From a virus, in the IMG/VR virus record IMGVR_UViG_3300029171_000004: a DNA stretch of 64,000 bases. One strand, given 5' to 3'. The position numbers were made by a program, and so were the translations under genes. How positions within the stretch are numbered: position 1 is the stretch's first letter; each line of letters starts with the position of its first letter. Under the pieces are notes generated by a model. That model searched no databases. It worked only from the letters and a program-made list of their open reading frames with translations, and was not told where the DNA came from. This document shows positions 2,966-27,493 of this stretch, one piece after another.

Positions 2966-4192
2966 ATGAAAAAAATAAATATGCGATCATTTAGTGAAAT
3001 ATCAAGTTTCGACTTTCCGAAACTCCATTACCAAAAAATTCAGGACGAAATAAATTCAAACAGTAAAGACTATATTCTTAAAGTTGATGAGGAAGAATTC
3101 GTGAAATACTTGGTAAACAAGTATTCGCTTGAACCTCTGAACATAATACACGAAAGCGAAAGTGTTAGTGAGCCAAAAAAGTCCAAGGTCAAAAGACAAA
3201 ATATGTGGAGAGAAGAGTACCTTGCGGATTCCTTTACATTCACAGTTAGTTATCAATTTACTGGCTCACCTGAAATATTCAAAATACGTTCAAGTAACTG
3301 GGTTATGACCTCGAATGAAATCTTCGTTAATAGTTCAAATTCAACTGTTAGTTTTCAGTTTACCATTTATGCTCAGGATGTAGAAGAATTTAATAAGGCC
3401 AAATCAGAAGGCTATTCAAGTGCATTTACTAATCTTACCAATGCAAATAACGATGTTCAACAAGTTATAAATGGTTTTGAAGGTACGGTTAGAGCAATGT
3501 TTCAAAGAACTAAGGATTCATTTAGTAAAGAAAATGCTTTCTACACTGCAGTAAATATTAAAACCAATCCGAAAACTGCATCTGTTTTCAGTGCCCCAAC
3601 AATTAAAAAAAAGGATGTGTTTCAACCAAAAGTATCGGAAAAAAAAGAGTTCGCAGCTGAACCAACAATGTCCCAATCAATGTATGAGGAGATCTTAAGA
3701 GCAGTCTACGACTGTGGTAAAAACATGGAGAAAAAACCGTCCTTGTATATAGGTAAAGATGAGGAGGGCCTACGTGATCAATTTGTTTTCGTGCTTGAAA
3801 CAAAATACGAAGGAACAACAGCTACAGGTGAGACATTTAATCGAAATGGCAAAACAGATATAATTCTTAAGTTTGCCAAGGATGGTTCAAATCTATTTGT
3901 TGCTGAATGCAAATTGTGGCATGGTCCAAGCGAAATGCTCAAAGCCATTGACCAACTTTTAAGCTATTTAACTTGGAGGGATTCAAAAGTTGCCTTAATG
4001 CTTTTTGTACATAATCAAAACTTTACAAGTGTCTTAGATACAATTAAAGCGGACATAACAAAACATGCTCAGTATAAAAAATCTGTCGGAAATAGAGGTG
4101 AAAGTTCCTTTTCATTTATTTTTGGATTGCCACAAGACACAAATAAAGATGTTCAATTAGAAATTATGGCTTTTCACTATGATAAAAGATGA
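2966..4192 (+). CDS. protein with C-terminal PD-(D/E)xK restriction-endonuclease-like domain
   Basis: EEGLRD...GKTDIIL...LFVAECKLW...IDQLLSYL pattern (E..D..ExK). Confidence 0.65.
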   Translation: MKKINMRSFSEISSFDFPKLHYQKIQDEINSNSKDYILKVDEEEFVKYLVNKYSLEPLNIIHESESVSEPKKSKVKRQNMWREEYLADSFTFTVSYQFTGSPEIFKIRSSNWVMTSNEIFVNSSNSTVSFQFTIYAQDVEEFNKAKSEGYSSAFTNLTNANNDVQQVINGFEGTVRAMFQRTKDSFSKENAFYTAVNIKTNPKTASVFSAPTIKKKDVFQPKVSEKKEFAAEPTMSQSMYEEILRAVYDCGKNMEKKPSLYIGKDEEGLRDQFVFVLETKYEGTTATGETFNRNGKTDIILKFAKDGSNLFVAECKLWHGPSEMLKAIDQLLSYLTWRDSKVALMLFVHNQNFTSVLDTIKADITKHAQYKKSVGNRGESSFSFIFGLPQDTNKDVQLEIMAFHYDKR

Positions 4193-4196
4193 TAGT

Positions 4197-4415
4197 TTAG
4201 AGAGCCATGATAAGCTTCTCAACCTCCACCTCTAATCCTTTCGCCACCTCAACAAGATAATAAAAGCTCGGATTCACCCCTCCAGCTTCAAGTCGCTGAA
4301 TTGACTGTTGATCTTTCCCAATAGAATTGGCCAGTTCGACTTGGGTAATACCTTTCTCCTTGCGGATTTCTTGGATTCGTTTGCCCAGTTTCTTTAAAAG
4401 TATTTCCTTTTTCAT
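4197..4415 (-). CDS. XRE/Cro-C1 HTH transcriptional regulator
   Basis: LGKRIQEIRKEKGITQVELA...IQRLEAGGVNPS; ATG 4415 preferred. Confidence 0.9.
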   Translation of the reverse strand: MKKEILLKKLGKRIQEIRKEKGITQVELANSIGKDQQSIQRLEAGGVNPSFYYLVEVAKGLEVEVEKLIMAL

Positions 4416-5704: not shown

Positions 5705-7120
5705 TTACGAATTACTGTGTAAAATAAGGACTGGGTTTGATTTGTCAACTGGAATATTAAAAGACACAAAGATTTCATTAATTAACCAACGTCTCCCTAG
5801 CCAATTACCTCCTTTGACCTGAAATGAGTCACTTTCATCATATTTTCCTCTTCCATCAATATCATTACCGAAGCTGTTATATAGGTGATTTACGAGCTTT
5901 TCAACTTCGCTGTAGTAAACAAAGTTCGAGTAGTTTTTTGGCGTTCTCCTGAAAACATATGAATATCCTGAGTCTATAAAACGATATATAACAAGTTGAT
6001 TAAAAAAAGTAAATAGATTGCTAGATATGATCCATTCGTGTATTTCCCCCTGATTTTCTAATGAACAATATATACTTGTGCTTTCTACCTTACTTTCGTC
6101 AAAAACGATAGACTCTTCAAGTTCATTAAGTGCGGACTTAAAAGATAATCCTTCTAAATATACAAGCATCTCGGATACAGAATAAACCTTTGTGGGTATA
6201 TTCTCTATTTCATAAGCTACTTTTGCTTTCCCCGCAGTTTTTCTATCCTCTGTCACAAAAAAATCACAGTGCGCACCATAGAAAGCATGTTTTAGGTCAT
6301 TGAGATAGTTATTATATCCATTGTCCATACTATCGGACTTGTAGCCAATCATATCCAAATTGGAAAATGCCAATAAGAATTTATCCCAATTGGATTGTTC
6401 TTCAGGTTTTTTTGGTTGACTTGCAATAATTAAGTCATTAAACTCTAAAAAGGTTTTATTTAAAGCGCTATCCTGCATGACAGCGTCAAGCTTTTGGATA
6501 ACATCCTGATCAAATGAAGAAATATGGCTTCCAATATTAAGGTTCGAGATTACAAATTTTCTTAGCTCTTTATACGTGGACGGGTCTTTTTGCATTTCCG
6601 TAACAAAATTCAACATACTTATTATTGCTTCGCCGAATGTATCACCAGAGTACATTTTTGCCATTGGAGTGTTCTCAAGCCCTGGAACTTTTAGAGGATT
6701 TTGGACATTAAGTGCGTCAATCATCATCTTTCCCGCTAAGCCAAGTTCACCTGGTTCATTCTGAAGTTCTTTGAACACAGCCATAACATCTGTGGGTTCT
6801 TCCTTGATAGTGAAATTCTGAAAATAGACTCGTGGATCAGCAATGCCAGCCACAGCATTAGGATTTTTTAGTTCGGTTGTAATCAGATTGTGCTCTGAAA
6901 GTTCAGCGATGAACTCTAAGTCAGCCTCAGTCATTTCTCGTTTCTTTAAATCATCGGCATCATACCTATGAGCTAAGTCAGACATCAACGCATCTGAAAA
7001 GGGAATAATAAAATGTTCTTTATGTTGTCTCAACTTCTGCAGCATTGCAATATCCTCAGGTCTAGAGCCTTTTTTGAGAGCGGTAATTACATTTTTATCC
7101 AAGTAAATTCTAATCATCAA
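5705..7120 (-). CDS. PIN-like domain protein
   Basis: N-terminal IYLDKNVI and later NDLKHAFYGAHCDFFVTEDRK acidic motifs typical of PIN folds. Confidence 0.6.
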   Translation of the reverse strand: MMIRIYLDKNVITALKKGSRPEDIAMLQKLRQHKEHFIIPFSDALMSDLAHRYDADDLKKREMTEADLEFIAELSEHNLITTELKNPNAVAGIADPRVYFQNFTIKEEPTDVMAVFKELQNEPGELGLAGKMMIDALNVQNPLKVPGLENTPMAKMYSGDTFGEAIISMLNFVTEMQKDPSTYKELRKFVISNLNIGSHISSFDQDVIQKLDAVMQDSALNKTFLEFNDLIIASQPKKPEEQSNWDKFLLAFSNLDMIGYKSDSMDNGYNNYLNDLKHAFYGAHCDFFVTEDRKTAGKAKVAYEIENIPTKVYSVSEMLVYLEGLSFKSALNELEESIVFDESKVESTSIYCSLENQGEIHEWIISSNLFTFFNQLVIYRFIDSGYSYVFRRTPKNYSNFVYYSEVEKLVNHLYNSFGNDIDGRGKYDESDSFQVKGGNWLGRRWLINEIFVSFNIPVDKSNPVLILHSNS

Positions 7121-8550
7121 ATTTTAACAAATAACTCTTCATTAATCTCACATCTCAACTGATCCTCATAGTATTTTACATAATTAATAATACGACCATT
7201 ATAGCCAAGATGCTTTAAAAGAAGTTTGTTCACAAGCACATTTAATCGAAGAGAGATATGGTAAACCTTTAGCTCATCAATTTTATTACCTTCTTCATCA
7301 TTACCATTTCGACCATGTAGAAAATTATTTCTATTGTCAATGGCTACAAGGTCAAGGTCGTTTAGTTCAATTCCATACATTGCAAAGGGCTTTATTAGTT
7401 TATCTCTGTTTGTTGGATTGTTGATTTTGTCTATGTTTTTTTGAAGAATTACCATTGCGTCATTGTCGCCAGTAGCATTAATAGCATCTTTATAACCTTC
7501 TAGAACAGCCACCAGATCCGTCCTAAATTTTTTAGCAAGAGCCTTATCCTTGATTGGTTTTAAACCGTCATTTTCATCAGCAATAATGTTAGTCAGTCTT
7601 TCCAACGCAACAGAATATCCCGCTGGCTGAAGAATTAATGATGCTGTATTTGCTTCAAGTAGTAAAATAATTAATGAGGCGTAATTTTTGTCAGAATAAA
7701 TCCTATTGCAAAGTTTGGAAAACAGTTCTTGTGAAAGAGGCTTCATATCATCTTTCACTCTATCAGCCAAGGATTCGTCATCTGTCCGACCATAAGGTTC
7801 TCCATAAATTGGATTATTGAGTCCTTTAAGAGTATTCCTTAATTGGAGGTACTGGATGTCTCTCATAGAACTGAAGGAAGCTTCTTCTGATGATAGGTAA
7901 AATGCTTCATTTTGATAGAATGTTGCGCAGAGCAACCCGTACCCAATCATAATGGAATGACAAATATCACTAAACTCTTCATAAGGTATTTTAACTGTAG
8001 AATCTATAAAGAAATGCCTTTCGTCATCTTGGCTTACCTCATAGATATTGAAGTCTAAGCCCATTACAGTTACTGGAGCTTTACCATAAAAGTGGTGCAT
8101 TTTTTCGTCTTTGAATTCTTCGGTCTCTACGTAAAACTGAAGTCTGTTCGATTTTCCCACACATATAACAAAGCGACGGAACATGTGTTCCAAATTCTTG
8201 TGGACTTCTGAACACAGTAACCAAATATCACCACTTACAATCATCCCGCCTTTCAATGGTTCGGTTAAGTTTTTTCGGCTAGCCCTGAATTCTCTGCTGG
8301 TCATTGTGTAATTATTGCAATAGTATGTTTGATCACCGACCTCAAGCTTCATTTCAAATGGCACATAAAAACCCTGGAATAGATCCTTAACAATCAACTC
8401 AAAACCACGCTCGCATTTACGAAGCACCCCATCATGTTTTTCGATATTATATTTATCAATAGTGACAAGAACATTCTTTACCTCTCTTAGCCAACTAATT
8501 TTTTCAAAAGTCGACTGAACAATGATATTTTCTCCTTTATCCATATGCAA
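7117..8550 (-). CDS. HEPN-domain protein (ApeA-like)
   Basis: C-terminal RNNFLHG (RxxxxH) motif in helical domain after YSVALERL; long beta-rich N-terminus. Confidence 0.65.
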   Translation of the reverse strand: MHMDKGENIIVQSTFEKISWLREVKNVLVTIDKYNIEKHDGVLRKCERGFELIVKDLFQGFYVPFEMKLEVGDQTYYCNNYTMTSREFRASRKNLTEPLKGGMIVSGDIWLLCSEVHKNLEHMFRRFVICVGKSNRLQFYVETEEFKDEKMHHFYGKAPVTVMGLDFNIYEVSQDDERHFFIDSTVKIPYEEFSDICHSIMIGYGLLCATFYQNEAFYLSSEEASFSSMRDIQYLQLRNTLKGLNNPIYGEPYGRTDDESLADRVKDDMKPLSQELFSKLCNRIYSDKNYASLIILLLEANTASLILQPAGYSVALERLTNIIADENDGLKPIKDKALAKKFRTDLVAVLEGYKDAINATGDNDAMVILQKNIDKINNPTNRDKLIKPFAMYGIELNDLDLVAIDNRNNFLHGRNGNDEEGNKIDELKVYHISLRLNVLVNKLLLKHLGYNGRIINYVKYYEDQLRCEINEELFVKI

Positions 8551-21313: not shown

Positions 21314-21514
21314 TCAAAAACTAAAATAAAAAACGCATCTCCAAATCCCTATACCTTTATGTTTCATTGTTCTTAATTGTCTCCACATAAGCCAGTGGTT
21401 GTCCATGTGAACATAAACCTTTTTTATTTTTACCCTATACCCAAGCACAAGAACCGCATAAAATGGTTTGTTGTGTGGGCAATCTTCTATTTTAGTCCAT
21501 TTTTTTACCCACAT
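21314..21514 (-). CDS. hypothetical protein
   Basis: 66 aa ORF between co-oriented genes. Confidence 0.4.
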   Translation of the reverse strand: MWVKKWTKIEDCPHNKPFYAVLVLGYRVKIKKVYVHMDNHWLMWRQLRTMKHKGIGIWRCVFYFSF

Positions 21515-21769
21515 TTAATTCCACTTAAACGGGTTTGTTAATTCTACTTCTTTCCAAAAACCCACAAAACCAAACATTAAAATCCCAACTACAAACATAA
21601 TCACCAAAGCTATATAACTCAATGGATTGTATGGGTTTAATCTATAGGCTTTTAAAAAGCCACGACCTAACTTTGGGCTCCTGTCTTTATTTGAAACTTC
21701 TTGTAAGACAAGAAGGAATTTTAGTACTTTTTTAAGCATAAGCAAATATACAAAAAAGAATGAAACCAA
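21515..21769 (-). CDS. small membrane protein
   Basis: RLNPYNPLSY followed by TM segment; likely start MLKKV after TATATTTG at 21743-21750. Confidence 0.55.
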   Translation of the reverse strand: MVSFFFVYLLMLKKVLKFLLVLQEVSNKDRSPKLGRGFLKAYRLNPYNPLSYIALVIMFVVGILMFGFVGFWKEVELTNPFKWN

Positions 21770-21816
21770 ACAGCGTTTTTTGCGTATAACATTAAAATAA
21801 GCTATATTTATTCAAT

Positions 21817-23541
21817 ATGACAAAAGTTTATAAAATATTTCTGGATGATATCAGAGTTCCAACCGATATTTACCCTAAAGACAGCAACGAAGATTGGCTT
21901 ATAGTTAGGAATTTAACTGACTTTAAAAATGCAATTAACAAACTTGGAGCTCCAAGTTTCATTTCATTTGACAACGATTTAGGCGAAAGTAAGGAAGAGG
22001 GGAAAGATGCTGCAAAATGGATTGTCTTTGAAAAGGAGTTGGATATTACAAATACTAACTATATTGTTCATTCTGCAAATTCAAGTGGGGTGAGAGAATA
22101 TGTTTTGGGTACTTTAAACAATTGGAAAAAAGAGCTAAAAAAAAGAAGCACAGAAACAATGAATGAGCAAAATTTAAGACTTAAGGTAAGACAAATTCTT
22201 AGCGAAGCAAATGATGCGCAAAAAAATAAACTTGTTAAGATATTAAATTTTCTAGAATTTAAAAAGGATGTTATTGCTGCGGGTGGAGAAATATACGCTG
22301 TTGGTGGAATTGTTAGAGATGCTGTAATGGGTAAACCAAGCGATGATTTAGATATTGTTGTGCGTGGTGTACCATATGATGCCCTTTTTAAGATTCTTTC
22401 AAAATATGGTAAAGCCACAGATACATCTGTTGTTGATGAAAACGGAAAGAAAGATTTTGGTGCAACAAAGTTTGTGTCACACAATAAAATATTTAACAAG
22501 ATACTAAGTGATGCTGGTTTAAAAAGGGATATTGATGTGATGCTTCCAAGAAAAGACAGTAAGGATCAAAACGCAAAAGGTCACCGTGCCATAAAAAGTG
22601 ATGTGAACCCAATGTACACAATCCATGATGATTTAGATAGAAGGGATATTACAATTAACGCAATTGCCCTAGATTTAAGAGGTAATTTTATTGACAACGG
22701 TTACGCATTGCAAGATATTAAAAATGGTATAATACGTGCCGTTAGCGAGGATGCCTTTATTGAAGATCCACTGAGAATTGTTCGAGCTATAAGGTTTGCG
22801 GCCAGGTTTAATTATAACTGGGATGAAGGTACTTTGAATTTAATCAGAGATAATGTACAAATGCTTGCTGATAAAAACGAACTTCCAAGAGAAAGATTCT
22901 TGATGGAGTTTGAAAAAATGATTGGTAAAAGTGATTTGGGCCGTGCTGTTAAGCTTTTAGTTGACCTTGGGGCATACCGTGCCATATTTGGGATTGACTC
23001 TAAGATTAAAGATTTTAATCATTTTGAGAAGGCTAAAAACATTCCAGAGTTTTGTTATATGCTTTTTGAGTCTGAACCAGCTGATAGAATCATTCAACTT
23101 TCTACTCAAAATATCACTACAAAAACAGAAGATATTAAATACTTGCAAGCTTTGTGTAAATACATTGCTGAAGTAAAAGGTAGAAGTATGGATCATATTT
23201 CACACGTAAACGCTATTGCTACAATTTTCAACATATCATCAGTTATGCTTTTGGAATCATCTTACGTGGATGATAAAGATAGAATTTTAGCCAGGAAGTT
23301 TGCAAACGAGGAATTGCCAAAAACTGTTAATGATATTGGTTTAAGAAAGCAAGAATTTATTGACTTTGTGGTAAATGCAGTTGAAGGTACTGGTGCCAAC
23401 TTTGACGAGAAAAGAGATTTTCCAAAAATGGGCAAAGCTAAAAAGGTTGCTTTGCAAGCTATTTACAAGGGCGAAATAAAAAACAACCCAGAAGAAATTA
23501 AAAATTTCTTGTCAAGACACACCGAAATGTGGATGCAGTAA
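21817..23541 (+). CDS. cyclic-phosphate-processing receiver (cREC)-like domain fused to CCA-adding/poly(A) polymerase-family nucleotidyltransferase
   Basis: N-term IFLDDIR..ISFDNDLG..VHSAN; then VGGIVRD, DDLDI, DLDRRDITINAIA, EDPLRIVRAIRFAARF, ERFLMEFEK. Confidence 0.85.
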   Translation: MTKVYKIFLDDIRVPTDIYPKDSNEDWLIVRNLTDFKNAINKLGAPSFISFDNDLGESKEEGKDAAKWIVFEKELDITNTNYIVHSANSSGVREYVLGTLNNWKKELKKRSTETMNEQNLRLKVRQILSEANDAQKNKLVKILNFLEFKKDVIAAGGEIYAVGGIVRDAVMGKPSDDLDIVVRGVPYDALFKILSKYGKATDTSVVDENGKKDFGATKFVSHNKIFNKILSDAGLKRDIDVMLPRKDSKDQNAKGHRAIKSDVNPMYTIHDDLDRRDITINAIALDLRGNFIDNGYALQDIKNGIIRAVSEDAFIEDPLRIVRAIRFAARFNYNWDEGTLNLIRDNVQMLADKNELPRERFLMEFEKMIGKSDLGRAVKLLVDLGAYRAIFGIDSKIKDFNHFEKAKNIPEFCYMLFESEPADRIIQLSTQNITTKTEDIKYLQALCKYIAEVKGRSMDHISHVNAIATIFNISSVMLLESSYVDDKDRILARKFANEELPKTVNDIGLRKQEFIDFVVNAVEGTGANFDEKRDFPKMGKAKKVALQAIYKGEIKNNPEEIKNFLSRHTEMWMQ

Positions 23542-23562
23542 AAAAACTAGATATTTATTTAT

Positions 23563-23958
23563 ATGAGCGATAAGATCAGAAACATAATTAAAGAAGCACT
23601 CGAAGAGAGTGCTTTACTTTGTGAAGTAAAGATCGCTATCGACGATGAAAAGAAGCGTGGTTTTGCGCAAGCCATTGGTCAGCAATATAAAGAATCGCTA
23701 AAAGATTTAAAACCTGTTAAAATAGAAGGAAGGCTTAAGTTAGATAATGATAGTTTGTTTATAATCACTTTGTCTAATGGAGATATAATCCAGGCTTCAA
23801 AAAGTGCTAACCCAGCATATGCAAACATCATTATAAACAAAGGCGAAAAAGAGTATTTTATTAATTCACAAGAGTTGTTTACCAATAAATTTCCAGAACT
23901 AGTTAAAAAGTATTATTTGGAGTATAAAATGGCAAAGGCTGGTATTCCGTCCATGTAG
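23563..23958 (+). CDS. hypothetical late-type protein
   Basis: N-terminal IIKEALEE motif; TATTTAT upstream. Confidence 0.65.
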   Translation: MSDKIRNIIKEALEESALLCEVKIAIDDEKKRGFAQAIGQQYKESLKDLKPVKIEGRLKLDNDSLFIITLSNGDIIQASKSANPAYANIIINKGEKEYFINSQELFTNKFPELVKKYYLEYKMAKAGIPSM

Positions 23959-24374
23959 CCACCAATGGTGTTGTAATGGTACCATTCTAAGGCCATACCG
24001 TCATAACTTTCATCTTCAGATAATTCTTCTCCACTATCTTCATAACTCTTAGAAAGCTTTTGTAAATATAGTTCCTTATCTTGTAGGTAGATTGTAGATC
24101 CGTTATTAAGTATCAAGTGCCCAATTATGGTGTCTTCGTCACCAGTGGTAAACATGGCTTTACGATTCTTTTTCTTTATCGCACTCATGGCTTTTTTAGG
24201 TGAATCAAATGGAATATAATTTACACCCTTATACAGAGGTATAAAATCATTACCATACATCTCAGCATATCCCACTAATTTATCTAGGTTTTCCTTATCA
24301 AACTTGAATTCTTCGAGGTCTGGAACATCTTCCCTGATTTGTTTTTCGATTTTGTGCATATGTAAATTTACCAA
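23913..24374 (-). CDS. hypothetical protein
   Basis: 153 aa ORF; C-term DGMALEWYHYNTIG recalls a common phage family. Confidence 0.6.
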   Translation of the reverse strand: MVNLHMHKIEKQIREDVPDLEEFKFDKENLDKLVGYAEMYGNDFIPLYKGVNYIPFDSPKKAMSAIKKKNRKAMFTTGDEDTIIGHLILNNGSTIYLQDKELYLQKLSKSYEDSGEELSEDESYDGMALEWYHYNTIGGYMDGIPAFAILYSK

Positions 24375-24495
24375 AAAAGCTTAGTGTTTGCAAGTTTGTC
24401 TATAATTTTTCAATAAAAAGACAATAAATATTGGTTTTTGTTAAAAGTTCGCCTATAATTATAAAATTTTACAATATTTATTATCAAACAGTTAA

Positions 24496-24906
24496 GTGTT
24501 TATGAATCATAGAGAATTTAAATCTGCTGAAGAGTTCAAGCAATATGTCATTAGTGAAGCAACGAAATATTTGTTTTCATCTGAGACTAAAGCACCTAAG
24601 GCAACAATTAACGAGAACGTTTCCGAAGAAGCGCCATCAATTACTCCTGATGATATAAATAGACTAGCCGAAGAAATAAAGAAGATCAATAAGACCATAG
24701 ACCTTAGAAATCCACTCATTTCTGAAAGTGAAGAGAGTATTGTTGAAAGCATTATGAAAAAATCTATCAGAGAAAGAAGCGTAGATGTCGATGGTATAAA
24801 CAAGAAAAAACATCTAGACTTTCAAAACGAATCTGAAAAAAATAAATGGAATAGATTGCTCAACTACAACACTTTAAAAAGTGATGATGATGAGAGAAAA
24901 AAATAA
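24496..24906 (+). CDS. hypothetical late-type protein
   Basis: Multiple IxE motifs, TATTTATTA upstream, terminator downstream. Confidence 0.65.
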   Translation: MFMNHREFKSAEEFKQYVISEATKYLFSSETKAPKATINENVSEEAPSITPDDINRLAEEIKKINKTIDLRNPLISESEESIVESIMKKSIRERSVDVDGINKKKHLDFQNESEKNKWNRLLNYNTLKSDDDERKK

Positions 24907-24930
24907 AAACGTCAAATAAAAGCAAGTGAG

Positions 24931-24954
24931 GCCAGTTGAAAAACTGGCTTTTTT
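24931..24954 (+). terminator. intrinsic terminator
   Basis: GCCAGTT-GAAA-AACTGGC-TTTTTT. Confidence 0.8.
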
Positions 24955-24974
24955 GTTCTATTTATAAGTACATT

Positions 24975-26660
24975 ATGAACTGCATACCAAACAGAATAAA
25001 AAAGCGCCTTAAGGAAATTATTTCGCCAGACTCGGTGGATGTTTCTGATGTTTCCAAACTAAAAAATGGTCTAAACGGCAAAATTTGGGACCAAGGTGGA
25101 ATTTTAAAGCCAGAGGTTAGAGAAAAGATGATCCAAATCGGAAAAGAATTTTATAACCTTTTAAAACTTGAATATCCGATTAAGGATATATATTTCACTG
25201 GAAGCTTAGCAAACTACAATTGGACAAATCATAGCGATATAGATATTCATGTAATTTTTGACAAAACAGACGAGGATCCAAGTGAGTTGATTTCTGATTA
25301 TATTGATGCTAGGAAAGAAAATTGGTGGTATAGACACGACATTTCAATATATGGCTTTCCCACAGAATTATTTGCTAAAGAATTTGAAGACATTCATCAA
25401 TCAAAAGCTGTTTATAGCCTCCTACAAAACAGGTGGGTTAAAAAACCTTCTAAGAAAAATATAGTTATTGATTCTGAAGCTATACAGTATAAAGCTGCAG
25501 ATCTAATGAATAGAATTGACGATGTGGAAAAGATGTCAAATGATGAAAAAAGACTTTCTGCTGCAGACAATTTAAAGAAAAAAATTAAACAAATGAGAAA
25601 AGCTTCTTTAGAAGCTGGCGGTGAATATTCAACCGAAAACTTGGTATTTAAAACTCTAAGGAATAATAGGTATATCGAAAAACTAGACAATATTAAAACC
25701 GACTCTTTTGACAATACTATGAGTTTAAACGAATCAAAAACAAGAAACAAAGACGGAAGTCCAAAGTTTGGGTGTCTAATGGTATATTTTGATATTCCAA
25801 ATTGGGATAAAGTAACTGGTAAAATACTTCCAGAAGATGTATATGACGAACCAGGTTTTGGTATAGAAGATGAGCCTCACACAACAGTCTTGTATGGTTT
25901 TCATGATGAGGTACAGCTTGAGGATGTGCAAAAAATTACTAAAAAGATAGCAAAGGGGCCAATTAGCGTTGAAGTTACTGGTGTTGGAGTTTTTTCTGGA
26001 GATAAAATGCCATATGATGTTGTTAAATTTAACGTGGAATCCAAAGAGCTTGAAAGGATGAATGCTGCTGCGAAGAAATTGCCACACACTTCTTCGTTTC
26101 CTAAATATGAAGCACATATGACAATTGCATATGTAAAAAAAGGAGCTGGTGAAAAATATAAAAAAGAATTTGCCCAACCAATTAAGTGCACTGGGTATAA
26201 AATGGTTTTTTCTCTTGCGGATAAAACAAAGTACAATTGGAATTTAATTAAAAAGAATGTGTTAAAAGTTGAGAGAGATATTCCAGGAATTACTTCTGAA
26301 AAAATTGTGATTCTAAAAGACTTTATAAATTTCACATGTGCCAAGCTACAAATGAAAGAGCCAGTAACCGTAGTTATAAAAAGCGGAAGAGATGAATATA
26401 TTTCAACAACAGCAGCTTATTTACCAAATGAAAATGAAAACCATATAAGGTTTGGAGGGAGAGCTCTTGTGGATGTTTGTAGATCTATTGGCCATGAGTT
26501 AGTTCACAATAGACAACGTGAACTTGGTATGTTCAAAAAAGGGGAAGAGGTACAAAATATTGGTGGACCAATAGAAGACCAAGCAAACGCTATTGCTGGA
26601 GTATTAATAAAAGACTTTACTCACAATTATGGATATGACAAATTATATGAATTGGATTAA
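24975..26660 (+). CDS. Pol-beta nucleotidyltransferase + 2H phosphoesterase + HExxH metallopeptidase fusion
   Basis: TGSLANYNW..SDIDIH; PHTTVLYG and AHMTIAY; GHELVH; ATG 24975 after TATTTATA. Confidence 0.75.
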   Translation: MNCIPNRIKKRLKEIISPDSVDVSDVSKLKNGLNGKIWDQGGILKPEVREKMIQIGKEFYNLLKLEYPIKDIYFTGSLANYNWTNHSDIDIHVIFDKTDEDPSELISDYIDARKENWWYRHDISIYGFPTELFAKEFEDIHQSKAVYSLLQNRWVKKPSKKNIVIDSEAIQYKAADLMNRIDDVEKMSNDEKRLSAADNLKKKIKQMRKASLEAGGEYSTENLVFKTLRNNRYIEKLDNIKTDSFDNTMSLNESKTRNKDGSPKFGCLMVYFDIPNWDKVTGKILPEDVYDEPGFGIEDEPHTTVLYGFHDEVQLEDVQKITKKIAKGPISVEVTGVGVFSGDKMPYDVVKFNVESKELERMNAAAKKLPHTSSFPKYEAHMTIAYVKKGAGEKYKKEFAQPIKCTGYKMVFSLADKTKYNWNLIKKNVLKVERDIPGITSEKIVILKDFINFTCAKLQMKEPVTVVIKSGRDEYISTTAAYLPNENENHIRFGGRALVDVCRSIGHELVHNRQRELGMFKKGEEVQNIGGPIEDQANAIAGVLIKDFTHNYGYDKLYELD

Positions 26661-27084
26661 AAAAATAATTACATCAATTGCCCTTGTTTGTTCTTTGAAC
26701 ACATTTGCTCAAAACCAAATTACCATAGCACCATCCATGTATAACACCTGGGTTGAATCTAATTCAACTTGTGCGGGGTGTGGATCTTTTTATGCAATGG
26801 TTGTAAACGAGAAAGTGAGAGCTAAAGATGGGTATTATTATATGTATGTATATCTGTGGAGTAACAGCTATTATGCAAATGGGTACACTGCAAGTTCTTA
26901 TATAAAAAATATTAATTTGTTTTTTACAGATGGTGTAAAAGATTATTATGCGGTTGGTTTTCAATATGTTTTAGTACCACCAAAGTCTTTAGATTTTAAT
27001 GGGTGGTACCAGGTTGCATATTTATATCATGTATATCCAAACCAATCAATAAAAATAACTTGGTCTAACGTTAAAGCTTGGTAA
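26647..27084 (+). CDS. secreted protein
   Basis: MNWIKKIITSIALVCSLNTFAQ signal peptide; aromatic beta-rich body. Confidence 0.6.
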   Translation: MNWIKKIITSIALVCSLNTFAQNQITIAPSMYNTWVESNSTCAGCGSFYAMVVNEKVRAKDGYYYMYVYLWSNSYYANGYTASSYIKNINLFFTDGVKDYYAVGFQYVLVPPKSLDFNGWYQVAYLYHVYPNQSIKITWSNVKAW

Positions 27085-27085
27085 A

Positions 27086-27493
27086 ATGGGTGATGGTAAA
27101 GAATTAAATGTTGGAGACAAAGTTATTGGCGAAGGAACAAAAATAACACTTTCTGTTAAAACCGCCTTGTGGATAATTGGTGGCGCAATCACATTGTGTA
27201 CAACAATATTTTCAATGATGTATTTTGATGTAAAATCAGATGTTTCTGATTATAAAAAACAAATTGATAGAGATAAAGAAATGTTTGTAAAACAAGTTGA
27301 AGAAAACATTTCTAATAAACTTGAAAAACAAAGAGATAAAGATGAAGAGTTTATTAAATCCATAGAAGAAATTCGTGGAAACATAAGGCTTCTCCTGGAT
27401 AGAACTCAGGGTATAAGAACTTCTAACCCATCATCTGATGGTATTCCAACTATCGAATCTAACACTCCTGGTACCAGGCCCCCAAGTCATTAA
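27086..27493 (+). CDS. single-TM coiled-coil protein (holin-like possible)
   Basis: TM segment LWIIGGAITLCTTIFSMMY then charged coiled coil. Confidence 0.5.
   Translation: MGDGKELNVGDKVIGEGTKITLSVKTALWIIGGAITLCTTIFSMMYFDVKSDVSDYKKQIDRDKEMFVKQVEENISNKLEKQRDKDEEFIKSIEEIRGNIRLLLDRTQGIRTSNPSSDGIPTIESNTPGTRPPSH

What the first reader, a model, noticed from the sequence alone, without database searches (positions are those of the whole stretch)
21817..23541. cREC domain fused to a CCA-adding-type enzyme: candidate tRNA end-repair protein
Seen: receiver-like LDDIR/SFDNDLG/HSAN domain in frame with a class II nucleotidyltransferase, with an ILSEA linker motif. Established: cyclic-phosphate-processing receiver domains are predicted partners of RNA repair systems, and CCA enzymes restore tRNA ends. 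Inference: heals and re-tails tRNAs cut by host anticodon/acceptor nucleases. It lies close to the 2H fusion gene, suggesting an RNA-repair neighbourhood.
Basis: partly seen in the sequence, partly recalled or inferred. Interest (0 to 1): 0.6.

Follow-up and report, generated by a model that had tools for sequence, protein, structure and literature searches.

The report
Phage cREC–CCA tRNA-end repair fusion
A large uncultured phage joins an uncharacterised receiver-like domain, predicted to remove phosphates, to a complete tRNA CCA-tail-building enzyme; relatives keep the same pairing, so the protein probably cleans and rebuilds damaged tRNA ends, though this is untested.

Summary
ORF 21817-23541 (+) encodes a 574-aa protein with an N-terminal cREC domain (PF20274, E 7e-17) and a complete class II tRNA nucleotidyltransferase. 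All catalytic motifs of both halves are intact.

The fusion is real and recurrent. Independent datasets hold 93-99.8% identical 573/574-aa copies, and about 19 protein clusters carry it.

- Most type-1 relatives (about 460 aa) start there.
- In the closest locus a LAGLIDADG homing endonuclease gene sits between a separate cREC gene and the CCA gene.
- In another syntenic phage the same cREC precedes a very different CCA enzyme (31% identity).
- A complete 519-kb phage has one cREC and one CCA enzyme, and they are fused.

So the pairing is selected but covalent linkage is optional.

The best reading is a two-step tRNA 3'-end repair enzyme. cREC removes a blocking 2',3'-cyclic or 3' phosphate, and the CCA domain rebuilds the tail. 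This is a functional analogue of the HD domain of E. coli Cca. cREC activity is untested anywhere, and no RNA ligase is nearby, so repair of anticodon cuts is unsupported.

The scan has not noted cREC-CCA before. It has noted HAD-CCA and HD-CCA fusions in other phages. I rate this a new variant of a known kind, of moderate interest.

The parts
21817..23541 (+). Whole cREC-CCA fusion gene (574 codons plus stop)
   Evidence: near-identical fused copies in independent datasets
21817..22155 (+). cREC domain, residues 1-113. The family's conserved residues are all present: D10, D11, R13, R31, G44, P46, F51, D52, D54, L55, G62, H85, S86, N88
   Evidence: Pfam PF20274; conservation across 106 cREC sequences; AlphaFold model pLDDT 93; receiver-domain fold by Foldseek and VIA-align (Spo0A Z 9.6, rmsd 2.7, 92 aligned)
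21970..21978 (+). D52-N-D54 at the end of strand 3, the proposed catalytic Asp pair. D54 is the only invariant column of the cREC alignment
   Evidence: the catalytic role is inferred
22159..22161 (+). Met115 codon, the junction. It is the start codon of the unfused and split relatives
   Evidence: 459/460-aa forms at 92-95% identity begin here; the L001 CCA ORF starts at the equivalent ATG directly after a homing endonuclease gene
22090..22248 (+). Long helical linker, residues 92-144. It includes the conserved LRxxVRxIL helix that holds 'ILSEA'
   Evidence: full-length model with low pLDDT at 117-129; the helix is conserved in unfused enzymes
22291..22737 (+). Nucleotidyltransferase head domain with GGIVRD (163-168), DLD (177-179) and RRD (275-277)
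   Evidence: Pfam PF01743; these residues are invariant in 84 relatives; PDB alignment to 1miv
22762..22989 (+). Neck: motif D EDPLR (316-320), the nucleotide template, and the PF12627 region (336-391) with motif E (ERF 359-361)
22990..23538 (+). Helical body and tail (tRNA-binding part) of the CCA enzyme. There is no HD domain
   Evidence: the full-length model matches whole CCA-adding enzymes (1miv E 5e-15, TM by target 0.72); NCBIfam NF009814 aligns to profile position 394 of 396
23563..23958 (+). Conserved 131-aa gene directly downstream. It has no known family and belongs to the conserved block
   Evidence: 68-76% identical and in the same position in L001, L002 and L005; no Pfam or PHROG match

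Best explanation
The gene encodes a bifunctional tRNA 3'-end repair enzyme. The C-terminal 460 residues are a complete class II tRNA nucleotidyltransferase that adds or completes CCA; this part also probably finishes phage tRNAs whose genes lack CCA. The N-terminal cREC domain is a truncated receiver fold with four strands. It keeps the acidic pair after strand 1, a D-x-D after strand 3 and an H-S-x-N after strand 4. I infer that it is a phosphoesterase that works through an aspartyl-phosphate intermediate, like HAD phosphatases and receiver domains. It would remove a 2',3'-cyclic phosphate, a 3'-phosphate or another phosphoryl block from a clipped or modified tRNA acceptor end. That would expose the 3'-OH that the CCA domain needs. 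A flexible helical tether of about 50 residues would let both active sites reach the same RNA end. Shown here: domain identity, intact motifs, the folds, and the recurrent and exchangeable cREC-CCA pairing. Inferred: cREC catalysis, its substrate, and the order of the two steps.
For: Both domains are intact. The cREC fold is receiver-like at high model confidence. The full model matches whole CCA-adding enzymes best, and NCBIfam ranks CCA models (133 bits) well above PcnB (66 bits). The pairing is selected. Of long proteins carrying this cREC subfamily, 15 of 19 are CCA fusions. More distant cRECs are also fused to CCA (P0144, P0153). All CCA-fused cRECs form one clade. That clade is joined to two CCA lineages that share only about 31% identity. 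Three type-1 proteins have their nearest cREC in type-2 fusions, by 8-14 identity points. At one syntenic locus, related phages show four states: cREC fused to CCA type 1 (window); cREC, a homing endonuclease and CCA type 1 as separate genes (L001, L002); cREC overlapping CCA type 2 (L005); and CCA type 1 alone (L003). In a complete 518,809-bp phage the only cREC and the only PF01743 gene are one fused ORF. There is a functional precedent: E. coli Cca carries an HD domain that removes 2',3'-cyclic phosphate so that damaged tRNA ends can be repaired (PMC6961547, citing Yakunin et al. 2004), and this phage enzyme has no HD domain. cREC was predicted to process cyclic phosphates at RNA ends (PMC7824862).
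Against: No cREC protein has been assayed (PMC9503650) or solved; a cREC profile finds no PDB relative by sequence. Most type-1 relatives, and near-identical 460-aa forms, lack a fused cREC, and L003 has no cREC at the locus, so the CCA enzyme works without it. No tRNA gene, RNA ligase or polynucleotide kinase was seen near the gene. The domain orientation in the model is not reliable, because only 8 fused sequences were in its alignment. The gene sits beside an NAD+ salvage and Nudix operon, which fits the other published prediction for cREC, namely processing of ADP-ribose derivatives.
Confidence: 0.55

Rival explanations
1. Two independent jobs in one polypeptide. The CCA domain only matures phage tRNAs whose genes lack CCA. 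The cREC domain acts on NAD+-derived small molecules (ADPr>p, cADPR-type signals) as part of the adjacent NAD+/Nudix system or as an anti-signalling enzyme. The fusion would then reflect co-expression only.
For: The gene is transcribed divergently from a pncB-thioesterase-Nudix-nadD cluster. The cREC authors tie the domain to NAD+/ADPr processing and report Nudix-cREC fusions (PMC7824862, PMC9503650). In the 519-kb phage with the fusion, 43 of 45 tRNA genes checked lack an encoded CCA, so plain maturation is enough to explain a CCA enzyme.
Against: The cREC follows the CCA enzyme, not the NAD genes. It is joined to two unrelated CCA lineages, and it sits at the CCA gene in the 519-kb phage, where the neighbours are MazG and a UPF0227 esterase rather than an NAD operon. 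L003 keeps the phosphoribosyltransferase gene next to CCA but has no cREC. tRNA 3'-trailer processing gives 3'-OH ends, so maturation alone gives no reason for the pairing (established knowledge).
Confidence: 0.2
2. cREC is not an enzyme here. It is a regulatory or sensing receiver module: it would accept a phosphoryl group or bind a phosphorylated RNA end or nucleotide, and switch or recruit the CCA enzyme.
For: The fold and acidic pocket are those of phospho-accepting receiver domains. Fusion of an N-terminal receiver to an enzymatic output is the classical response-regulator layout.
Against: The model lacks strand 5 and helix 5, and so lacks the usual output face and the conserved Lys. The extra near-invariant R13, R31, H85, N88 and the invariant Asp two residues after D52 look catalytic or substrate-binding. 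The authors report that cREC is never linked to histidine kinases (PMC7824862). Stand-alone and split forms work in trans.
Confidence: 0.1
3. The C-terminal part is not a CCA-adding enzyme. It would be a poly(A) polymerase, or an A-only or CC-only adding enzyme, acting on other RNAs.
For: All NCBIfam matches fall below the equivalog cut-offs (best 133 bits against 290). PcnB and A-adding models also match weakly. Specificity within class II enzymes is not readable from the motifs.
Against: CCA models score highest. The best structural matches are full CCA-adding enzymes. Motif D EDxxR and the flexible region between motifs A and B are present. The complete 519-kb phage has a single PF01743 gene alongside 55 tRNA matches.
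Confidence: 0.05

Closest known systems
E. coli-type multifunctional Cca (class II CCA-adding enzyme with a C-terminal HD phosphohydrolase domain; Yakunin et al. 2004, as cited in PMC6961547)
   Same: One polypeptide combines a CCA-adding enzyme with a domain able (there shown, here predicted) to remove a 2',3'-cyclic or terminal phosphate from the tRNA 3' end, so that CCA can be rebuilt.
   Different: The healing domain here is an N-terminal receiver-fold cREC, not a C-terminal metal-dependent HD domain, and the two folds are unrelated. The phage enzyme scores below the NF008137 cut-off (107 bits against 451) and has no HD domain.
cREC domain family (PF20274; Iyer et al. 2021, Viruses 13:63, PMC7824862) and its reported Nudix-cREC fusions and links to RNA ligase and sirtuin genes (PMC9503650)
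   Same: Same domain with the same conserved residues, also in a jumbo-phage setting and near NAD+/Nudix genes.
   Different: The partner is a CCA-adding enzyme. I found no mention of this partner in the text of the two papers that describe cREC. Figure 6c and the supplements could not be read.
Bacillus stearothermophilus and Thermotoga CCA-adding enzymes (PDB 1miv, 3h38, 5hc9)
   Same: Head-neck-body-tail fold and motifs A-E.
   Different: About 20% identity. The phage enzyme has a longer insert between motifs A and B, an N-terminal helix, and the cREC domain.
T4 Pnkp 3'-phosphatase (HAD-type DxDxT) with Rnl1; eukaryotic ANGEL2 with TRNT1 (my own knowledge)
   Same: End-healing first (removal of 2',3'>p or 3'-P through an Asp nucleophile, or by a phosphatase), then end-rebuilding. 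The D-x-D of cREC resembles the HAD nucleophile and general-acid pair.
   Different: Those are separate proteins of other folds. T4 repairs anticodon-loop breaks by ligation, not acceptor ends.

Membership tests
Class II tRNA nucleotidyltransferase / poly(A) polymerase superfamily (PF01743) | Motif A GGxVRD with the two catalytic carboxylates DxD | tested here: met
   GGIVRD 163-168 and DLD 177-179; invariant in 84 relatives
Class II tRNA nucleotidyltransferase / poly(A) polymerase superfamily (PF01743) | Motif B RRD, motif D EDxxR (nucleotide template), motif E | tested here: met
   RRD 275-277, EDPLR 316-320, ERF 359-361
Class II tRNA nucleotidyltransferase / poly(A) polymerase superfamily (PF01743) | Head-neck-body-tail architecture | tested here: met
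   Model pLDDT 88.6; 1miv E 4.9e-15, TM by target 0.72, about 450 columns aligned
CCA-adding enzyme proper (adds C, C, A) | Score above an NCBIfam equivalog cut-off for a CCA tRNA nucleotidyltransferase | tested here: not met
   Best match is NF009814, 133 bits against a cut-off of 290. This is a divergent phage clade, so the exact activity is not assigned by the model.
CCA-adding enzyme proper (adds C, C, A) | Addition of CCA to tRNA, with stop after A76 | not testable with these tools
   Needs an enzyme assay
PcnB poly(A) polymerase | Score above the TIGR01942 / NF008634 cut-offs | tested here: not met
   66 bits against 306, and 57 against 702; lower than the CCA models
cREC (PF20274) | Pfam gathering score | tested here: met
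   62.4 bits against 27, E 6.8e-17
cREC (PF20274) | Conserved acidic residues (the pair after strand 1, the Asp residues after strand 3) and the HSxN motif | tested here: met
   D10, D11, D52, D54, H85, S86 and N88 are present; these are the near-invariant columns of 106 cREC sequences
cREC (PF20274) | Receiver-like Rossmannoid fold | tested here: met
   pLDDT 93; Foldseek hits CheY, DivK and KdpE at probability 1.0; VIA-align Spo0A Z 9.6, and nearly all of the top 50 are receiver domains
cREC (PF20274) | Cyclic-phosphate or phosphoester hydrolysis | not testable with these tools
   Predicted only; PMC9503650 states that it is experimentally uncharacterised
E. coli-type multifunctional Cca | C-terminal HD phosphohydrolase domain | tested here: not met
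   No HD family in the Pfam scan; NF008137 aligns only to profile positions 66-207. It may work like this enzyme but is not a member.

The most novel reading that the evidence does not exclude
The cREC-CCA module is a phage counter-defence against immune effectors that chemically block the tRNA acceptor end. The clearest candidates are toxSAS/CapRel-type enzymes, which pyrophosphorylate the 3'-CCA end (bioRxiv 10.1101/2021.04.30.441581; PMC9712102). Nucleases that clip CCA and leave a cyclic phosphate are another. The CCA domain would supply acceptor-end recognition and cREC would strip the (pyro)phosphate. cREC would then be the first receiver-fold RNA-end phosphatase.
Probability: 0.1. Interest if true: 0.8.

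Novelty: new variant of a known kind. Interest (0 to 1): 0.5.

Why it matters
cREC is a widespread phage domain: 1,116 representative clusters match at E <= 0.001, and it is reported in up to 18% of jumbo phages (PMC9503650). Its chemistry has never been tested.

A fusion to a CCA-adding enzyme names a concrete macromolecular substrate, the tRNA 3' end. That turns a contextual prediction into a simple assay.

It also adds a third, structurally unrelated healing domain to the theme of a phosphoesterase joined to a CCA enzyme. The HD domain of E. coli Cca is the first. Earlier unchecked notes of this scan report HAD-CCA fusions as well. Convergence of this kind suggests that phosphate-blocked acceptor ends are a common problem during infection, and it points to host defences that act on tRNA tails.

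The locus is also a clear example of cassette exchange around homing endonuclease genes.

Tried and rejected
I therefore could not inspect the contigs of the 459/460-aa near-identical forms or of the unfused members of the fused subclade.
- No whole genome is held for the window.

**Searches that found little or nothing**
- Megablast of the region against isolate phages found nothing.
- Scans of viral contigs and metagenome contigs with a cREC alignment returned only seven loci. Four of these came from the viral-contig scan and were places already known.
- The window holds no tRNA gene.
- The sigma-70 and terminator scan was uninformative. The upstream motif shared with L001 occurs only once in the window.
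- A cREC profile against PDB sequences gave only chance hits.
- The Atlas search of the unknown C-terminal part of P0129 gave only weak kinase-like leads (score 0.84).
- No supplementary files of PMC7824862 are held.

**Leads that I rejected**
- Felix-O1-like phages such as phiEa21-4 gave tblastn matches starting at query residue 75. That looked like an upstream cREC, but it is only an extension in the CCA gene's own frame. The upstream gene 80 has no Pfam family.
- Alignment A4, which mixed stand-alone cRECs with fused proteins, was misaligned, so I did not use it.

Full report
**Observation.** The window is AT-rich (GC 30-37% per 2-kb window) and, according to earlier notes of this scan, is a fragment of a freshwater jumbo phage. 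ORF 21817-23541 (+) starts with ATG and encodes 574 residues.
- Pfam finds cREC_REC (PF20274) at residues 5-93 (E 6.8e-17, 62 bits, cut-off 27). It finds the class II nucleotidyltransferase head (PF01743) at 159-307 and the RNA-binding neck (PF12627) at 336-391.
- PHROGs gives 'tRNA nucleotidyltransferase' (1e-45), plus an unknown-function family for the N-terminus.
- The fusion is not an artefact. A >=90% identity cluster contains 573/574-aa copies from NCBI, JGI, ENA and Logan assemblies, one of them 99.8% identical over the CCA part on a 185,658-bp contig.

**The CCA half.** Sequence alignment to solved enzymes and to 83 relatives shows all class II motifs. These are GGIVRD 163-168, DLD 177-179, RRD 275-277, EDPLR 316-320 and ERF 359-361, and the key residues are invariant across the family.
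- A full-length AlphaFold model (pLDDT 88.6) matches complete CCA-adding enzymes best: 1miv, E 4.9e-15, TM by target 0.72, about 450 columns. A-adding enzymes, CC-adding enzymes and poly(A) polymerases rank lower.
- NCBIfam ranks a Bacillus-type CCA model first (133 bits) and PcnB far lower (66 bits). All matches are below the equivalog cut-offs.
- This is therefore a divergent phage clade, and its exact nucleotide specificity must be measured.
- There is no HD domain.

**The cREC half.** An exhaustive HMMER search finds 1,116 representative clusters at E <= 0.001. Most are stand-alone proteins of 100-135 aa.
- In an alignment of 106 of them, the only invariant column is D54. The near-invariant columns are D10, D11, R13, R31, G44, P46, F51, D52, L55, G62, H85, S86 and N88. 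The window protein has all of them.
- The domain model is confident (pLDDT 93). It has four strands and a long C-terminal helix.
- Foldseek (CheY, DivK and KdpE, probability 1.0) and an independent all-against-all structural search (Spo0A Z 9.6, rmsd 2.7, 92 residues; nearly all of the top 50 are receiver domains) both give the receiver fold.
- The acidic pair follows strand 1, D52-x-D54 follows strand 3 and S86 follows strand 4. These are the positions of the receiver active site.
- Strand 5, helix 5 and the conserved Lys are missing.
- No solved structure is related by sequence.
- The domain was defined computationally and predicted to process cyclic phosphates on RNA ends or ADP-ribose derivatives (PMC7824862). 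It was still experimentally uncharacterised in 2022 (PMC9503650).
- My inference is that D-x-D at the phospho-acceptor position mimics the HAD nucleophile and general-acid pair. That would fit a phosphatase that uses an aspartyl-phosphate intermediate.

**Is the fusion conserved, and do relatives split at MNEQN?** Both are true.
- Among the 120 best of 864 homologs of the whole protein, seven clusters are fused (555-591 aa, 60-95% identity). More than 100 are about 460-aa enzymes that cover residues from about 105-118 to the end.
- Within the window protein's own >=90% cluster there are 459/460-aa forms that begin MNEQ, MDEQ or MKEN, exactly at Met115.
- In the closest locus with context (L001, CCA part 79% identical, from a 152,940-bp viral contig), three genes lie in a row. 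They are a separate 128-aa cREC gene (E 2.8e-19), a 286-aa LAGLIDADG homing endonuclease gene, and a 460-aa CCA gene that starts two bases after the endonuclease stop.
- L003, a more distant syntenic phage, has the CCA gene with no cREC.

**Evidence that the pairing is selected.**
- A search restricted to the cREC part found 19 long proteins with this cREC subfamily. Fifteen are CCA fusions.
- More distant cRECs (43-48% identity) are also fused to CCA enzymes (P0144 and P0153).
- A tree of the CCA part shows two very distant lineages. Type 1 is the window's type. In it, fused forms are confined to one 26-row subclade, where they interleave with unfused forms. All nine type-2 rows are fused, but they were found through the cREC search, so that sample is biased.
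- In the cREC tree, all CCA-fused cRECs fall in one clade of 32 rows (support 95), with type-1 and type-2 partners interleaved. This tree rests on 113 columns and FastTree, so its detail is weak.
- Plain pairwise identities say the same. P0007, P0009 and P0010 (type 1) have their nearest cREC in the type-2 fusions P0131, P0126 and P0132 (76-82%), against at most 74% within type 1.
- The clearest case is L005. Its flanking genes are 66-81% identical to those of the window and its cREC is 73% identical. Its CCA body is type 2 and only 31% identical. The CCA cassette has therefore been exchanged at a fixed locus while the cREC partner was kept.
- In L001 the adjacent cREC belongs to another cREC lineage (56% identity, outside the clade).
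- The complete 518,809-bp phage with terminal repeats (G003) has exactly one cREC match and one PF01743 match, in a single open frame.

**Mechanism.** Template-independent CCA addition needs a free 3'-OH. Metal-independent RNases and spontaneous transesterification leave 2',3'-cyclic phosphate. E. coli Cca carries an HD domain that removes it, so that damaged tails can be repaired (PMC6961547, citing Yakunin et al. 2004).
- The phage enzyme lacks HD and has cREC instead. The most economical reading is therefore a non-homologous replacement of the healing domain: cREC heals and the CCA domain rebuilds.
- The CCA domain probably also matures phage tRNAs. In the 519-kb phage, 43 of 45 tRNA genes checked lack an encoded CCA. 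Maturation yields 3'-OH ends, though, and so does not explain the cREC.
- Split and stand-alone arrangements show that the two parts can work in trans.
None was found among the neighbours examined. G003 has RNA-ligase-family genes, but they lie far from the fusion.

**Rivals.**
- cREC may act on NAD-derived molecules. This is suggested by the divergent pncB/Nudix/nadD cluster and by the published Nudix-cREC fusions. It is weakened because cREC tracks the CCA gene rather than the NAD genes.
- cREC may be a regulatory receiver. This is weakened by the truncated fold and by the extra conserved Arg, His and Asn residues.
- The enzyme may not be a CCA adder. This is weakened.
- A more novel reading, which the evidence does not exclude, is removal of the 3'-pyrophosphate that toxSAS/CapRel defence enzymes place on tRNA CCA ends (bioRxiv 10.1101/2021.04.30.441581; PMC9712102).

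**Novelty.**
- The text of the two papers that define and survey cREC does not mention a CCA partner. A full-text search for cREC together with CCA-adding found no other relevant paper.
- The contextual-network figure and the supplements could not be read, and the architecture is visible in precomputed Pfam annotations. The claim to novelty is therefore modest.
- I rate it a new variant of the known 'CCA-adding enzyme plus phosphoesterase' kind.
- This scan has no earlier cREC-CCA note. It does have unchecked notes of HAD-CCA and HD-CCA fusions in other phages, which suggests a convergent theme.

Noticed in passing
L001 6742-9404 (same in L002 1715-4355): A 286-aa LAGLIDADG homing endonuclease gene (7159-8019) sits exactly between a separate cREC gene and the CCA gene, at the point where the window protein is fused. 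A GIY-YIG endonuclease gene lies nearby (L001 5972-6658, minus strand; also L003 6755-7444, minus strand). In L002 the CCA gene is in two frames (2995-3984 and 3978-4355).
   Followed up: partly
L005 364-2781: The cREC ORF (364-708) overlaps by 14 nt the start of a type-2 CCA ORF. That ORF stops just after motif D (695-1291). An HNH/Vsr-like homing endonuclease gene follows (1340-2209), and then the C-terminal half of the CCA enzyme (2185-2781). The CCA gene is split by a mobile endonuclease or by an intron; I did not resolve which.
   Followed up: partly
window 21314-27493 versus L005 1-6743: The flanking genes are 66-81% identical between the two phages, but the CCA body is only 31% identical (type 1 versus type 2). 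The enzyme cassette has been swapped at a fixed locus, plausibly through homing-endonuclease-driven recombination.
   Followed up: yes
window 23563-23958 (+) and 23913-24374 (-): A conserved 131-aa gene with no known family lies directly downstream of the CCA gene in the window, L001, L002 and L005. It converges on, and overlaps by 46 nt, a conserved 153-aa gene on the other strand.
   Followed up: partly
G003 (518,809-bp viral contig), tRNA arrays at about 344-347 kb and 419-431 kb (loci L014-L043): 55 tRNA matches. Of 45 distinct genes checked, 43 lack an encoded CCA. Most have the discriminator base followed by a single C and then an A-rich spacer.
   Followed up: partly
L004 6857-7730 (G003); protein P0163: A MazG-like pyrophosphohydrolase gene and a UPF0227 (alpha/beta-hydrolase esterase) gene lie just upstream of the cREC-CCA fusion. 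UPF0227 is itself fused to cREC in P0163 (279 aa). This is a second recurring cREC partner, of unknown role.
   Followed up: no
protein P0217 (1649 aa, from the cREC search): A polyvalent protein with an ATP-dependent ligase, a LigD-type primase-polymerase and a C-terminal cREC (1455-1541). cREC may stand in for the 3'-phosphoesterase module of LigD, which would fit an end-healing role.
   Followed up: no
proteins P0123, P0125, P0128, P0129, P0146: Close relatives of this cREC are fused to C-terminal regions of 200-640 aa that have no Pfam or PHROG family. For P0129 there is only a weak kinase-like lead from the protein atlas (score 0.84).
   Followed up: partly
window 21780-21816 and L001 about 6700-6741: A shared AT-rich upstream element (GCGTATAA...TTAAAATA.GCTATATTTATT) precedes the cREC start in both phages. 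It occurs only once in the window. It may be a promoter.
   Followed up: partly
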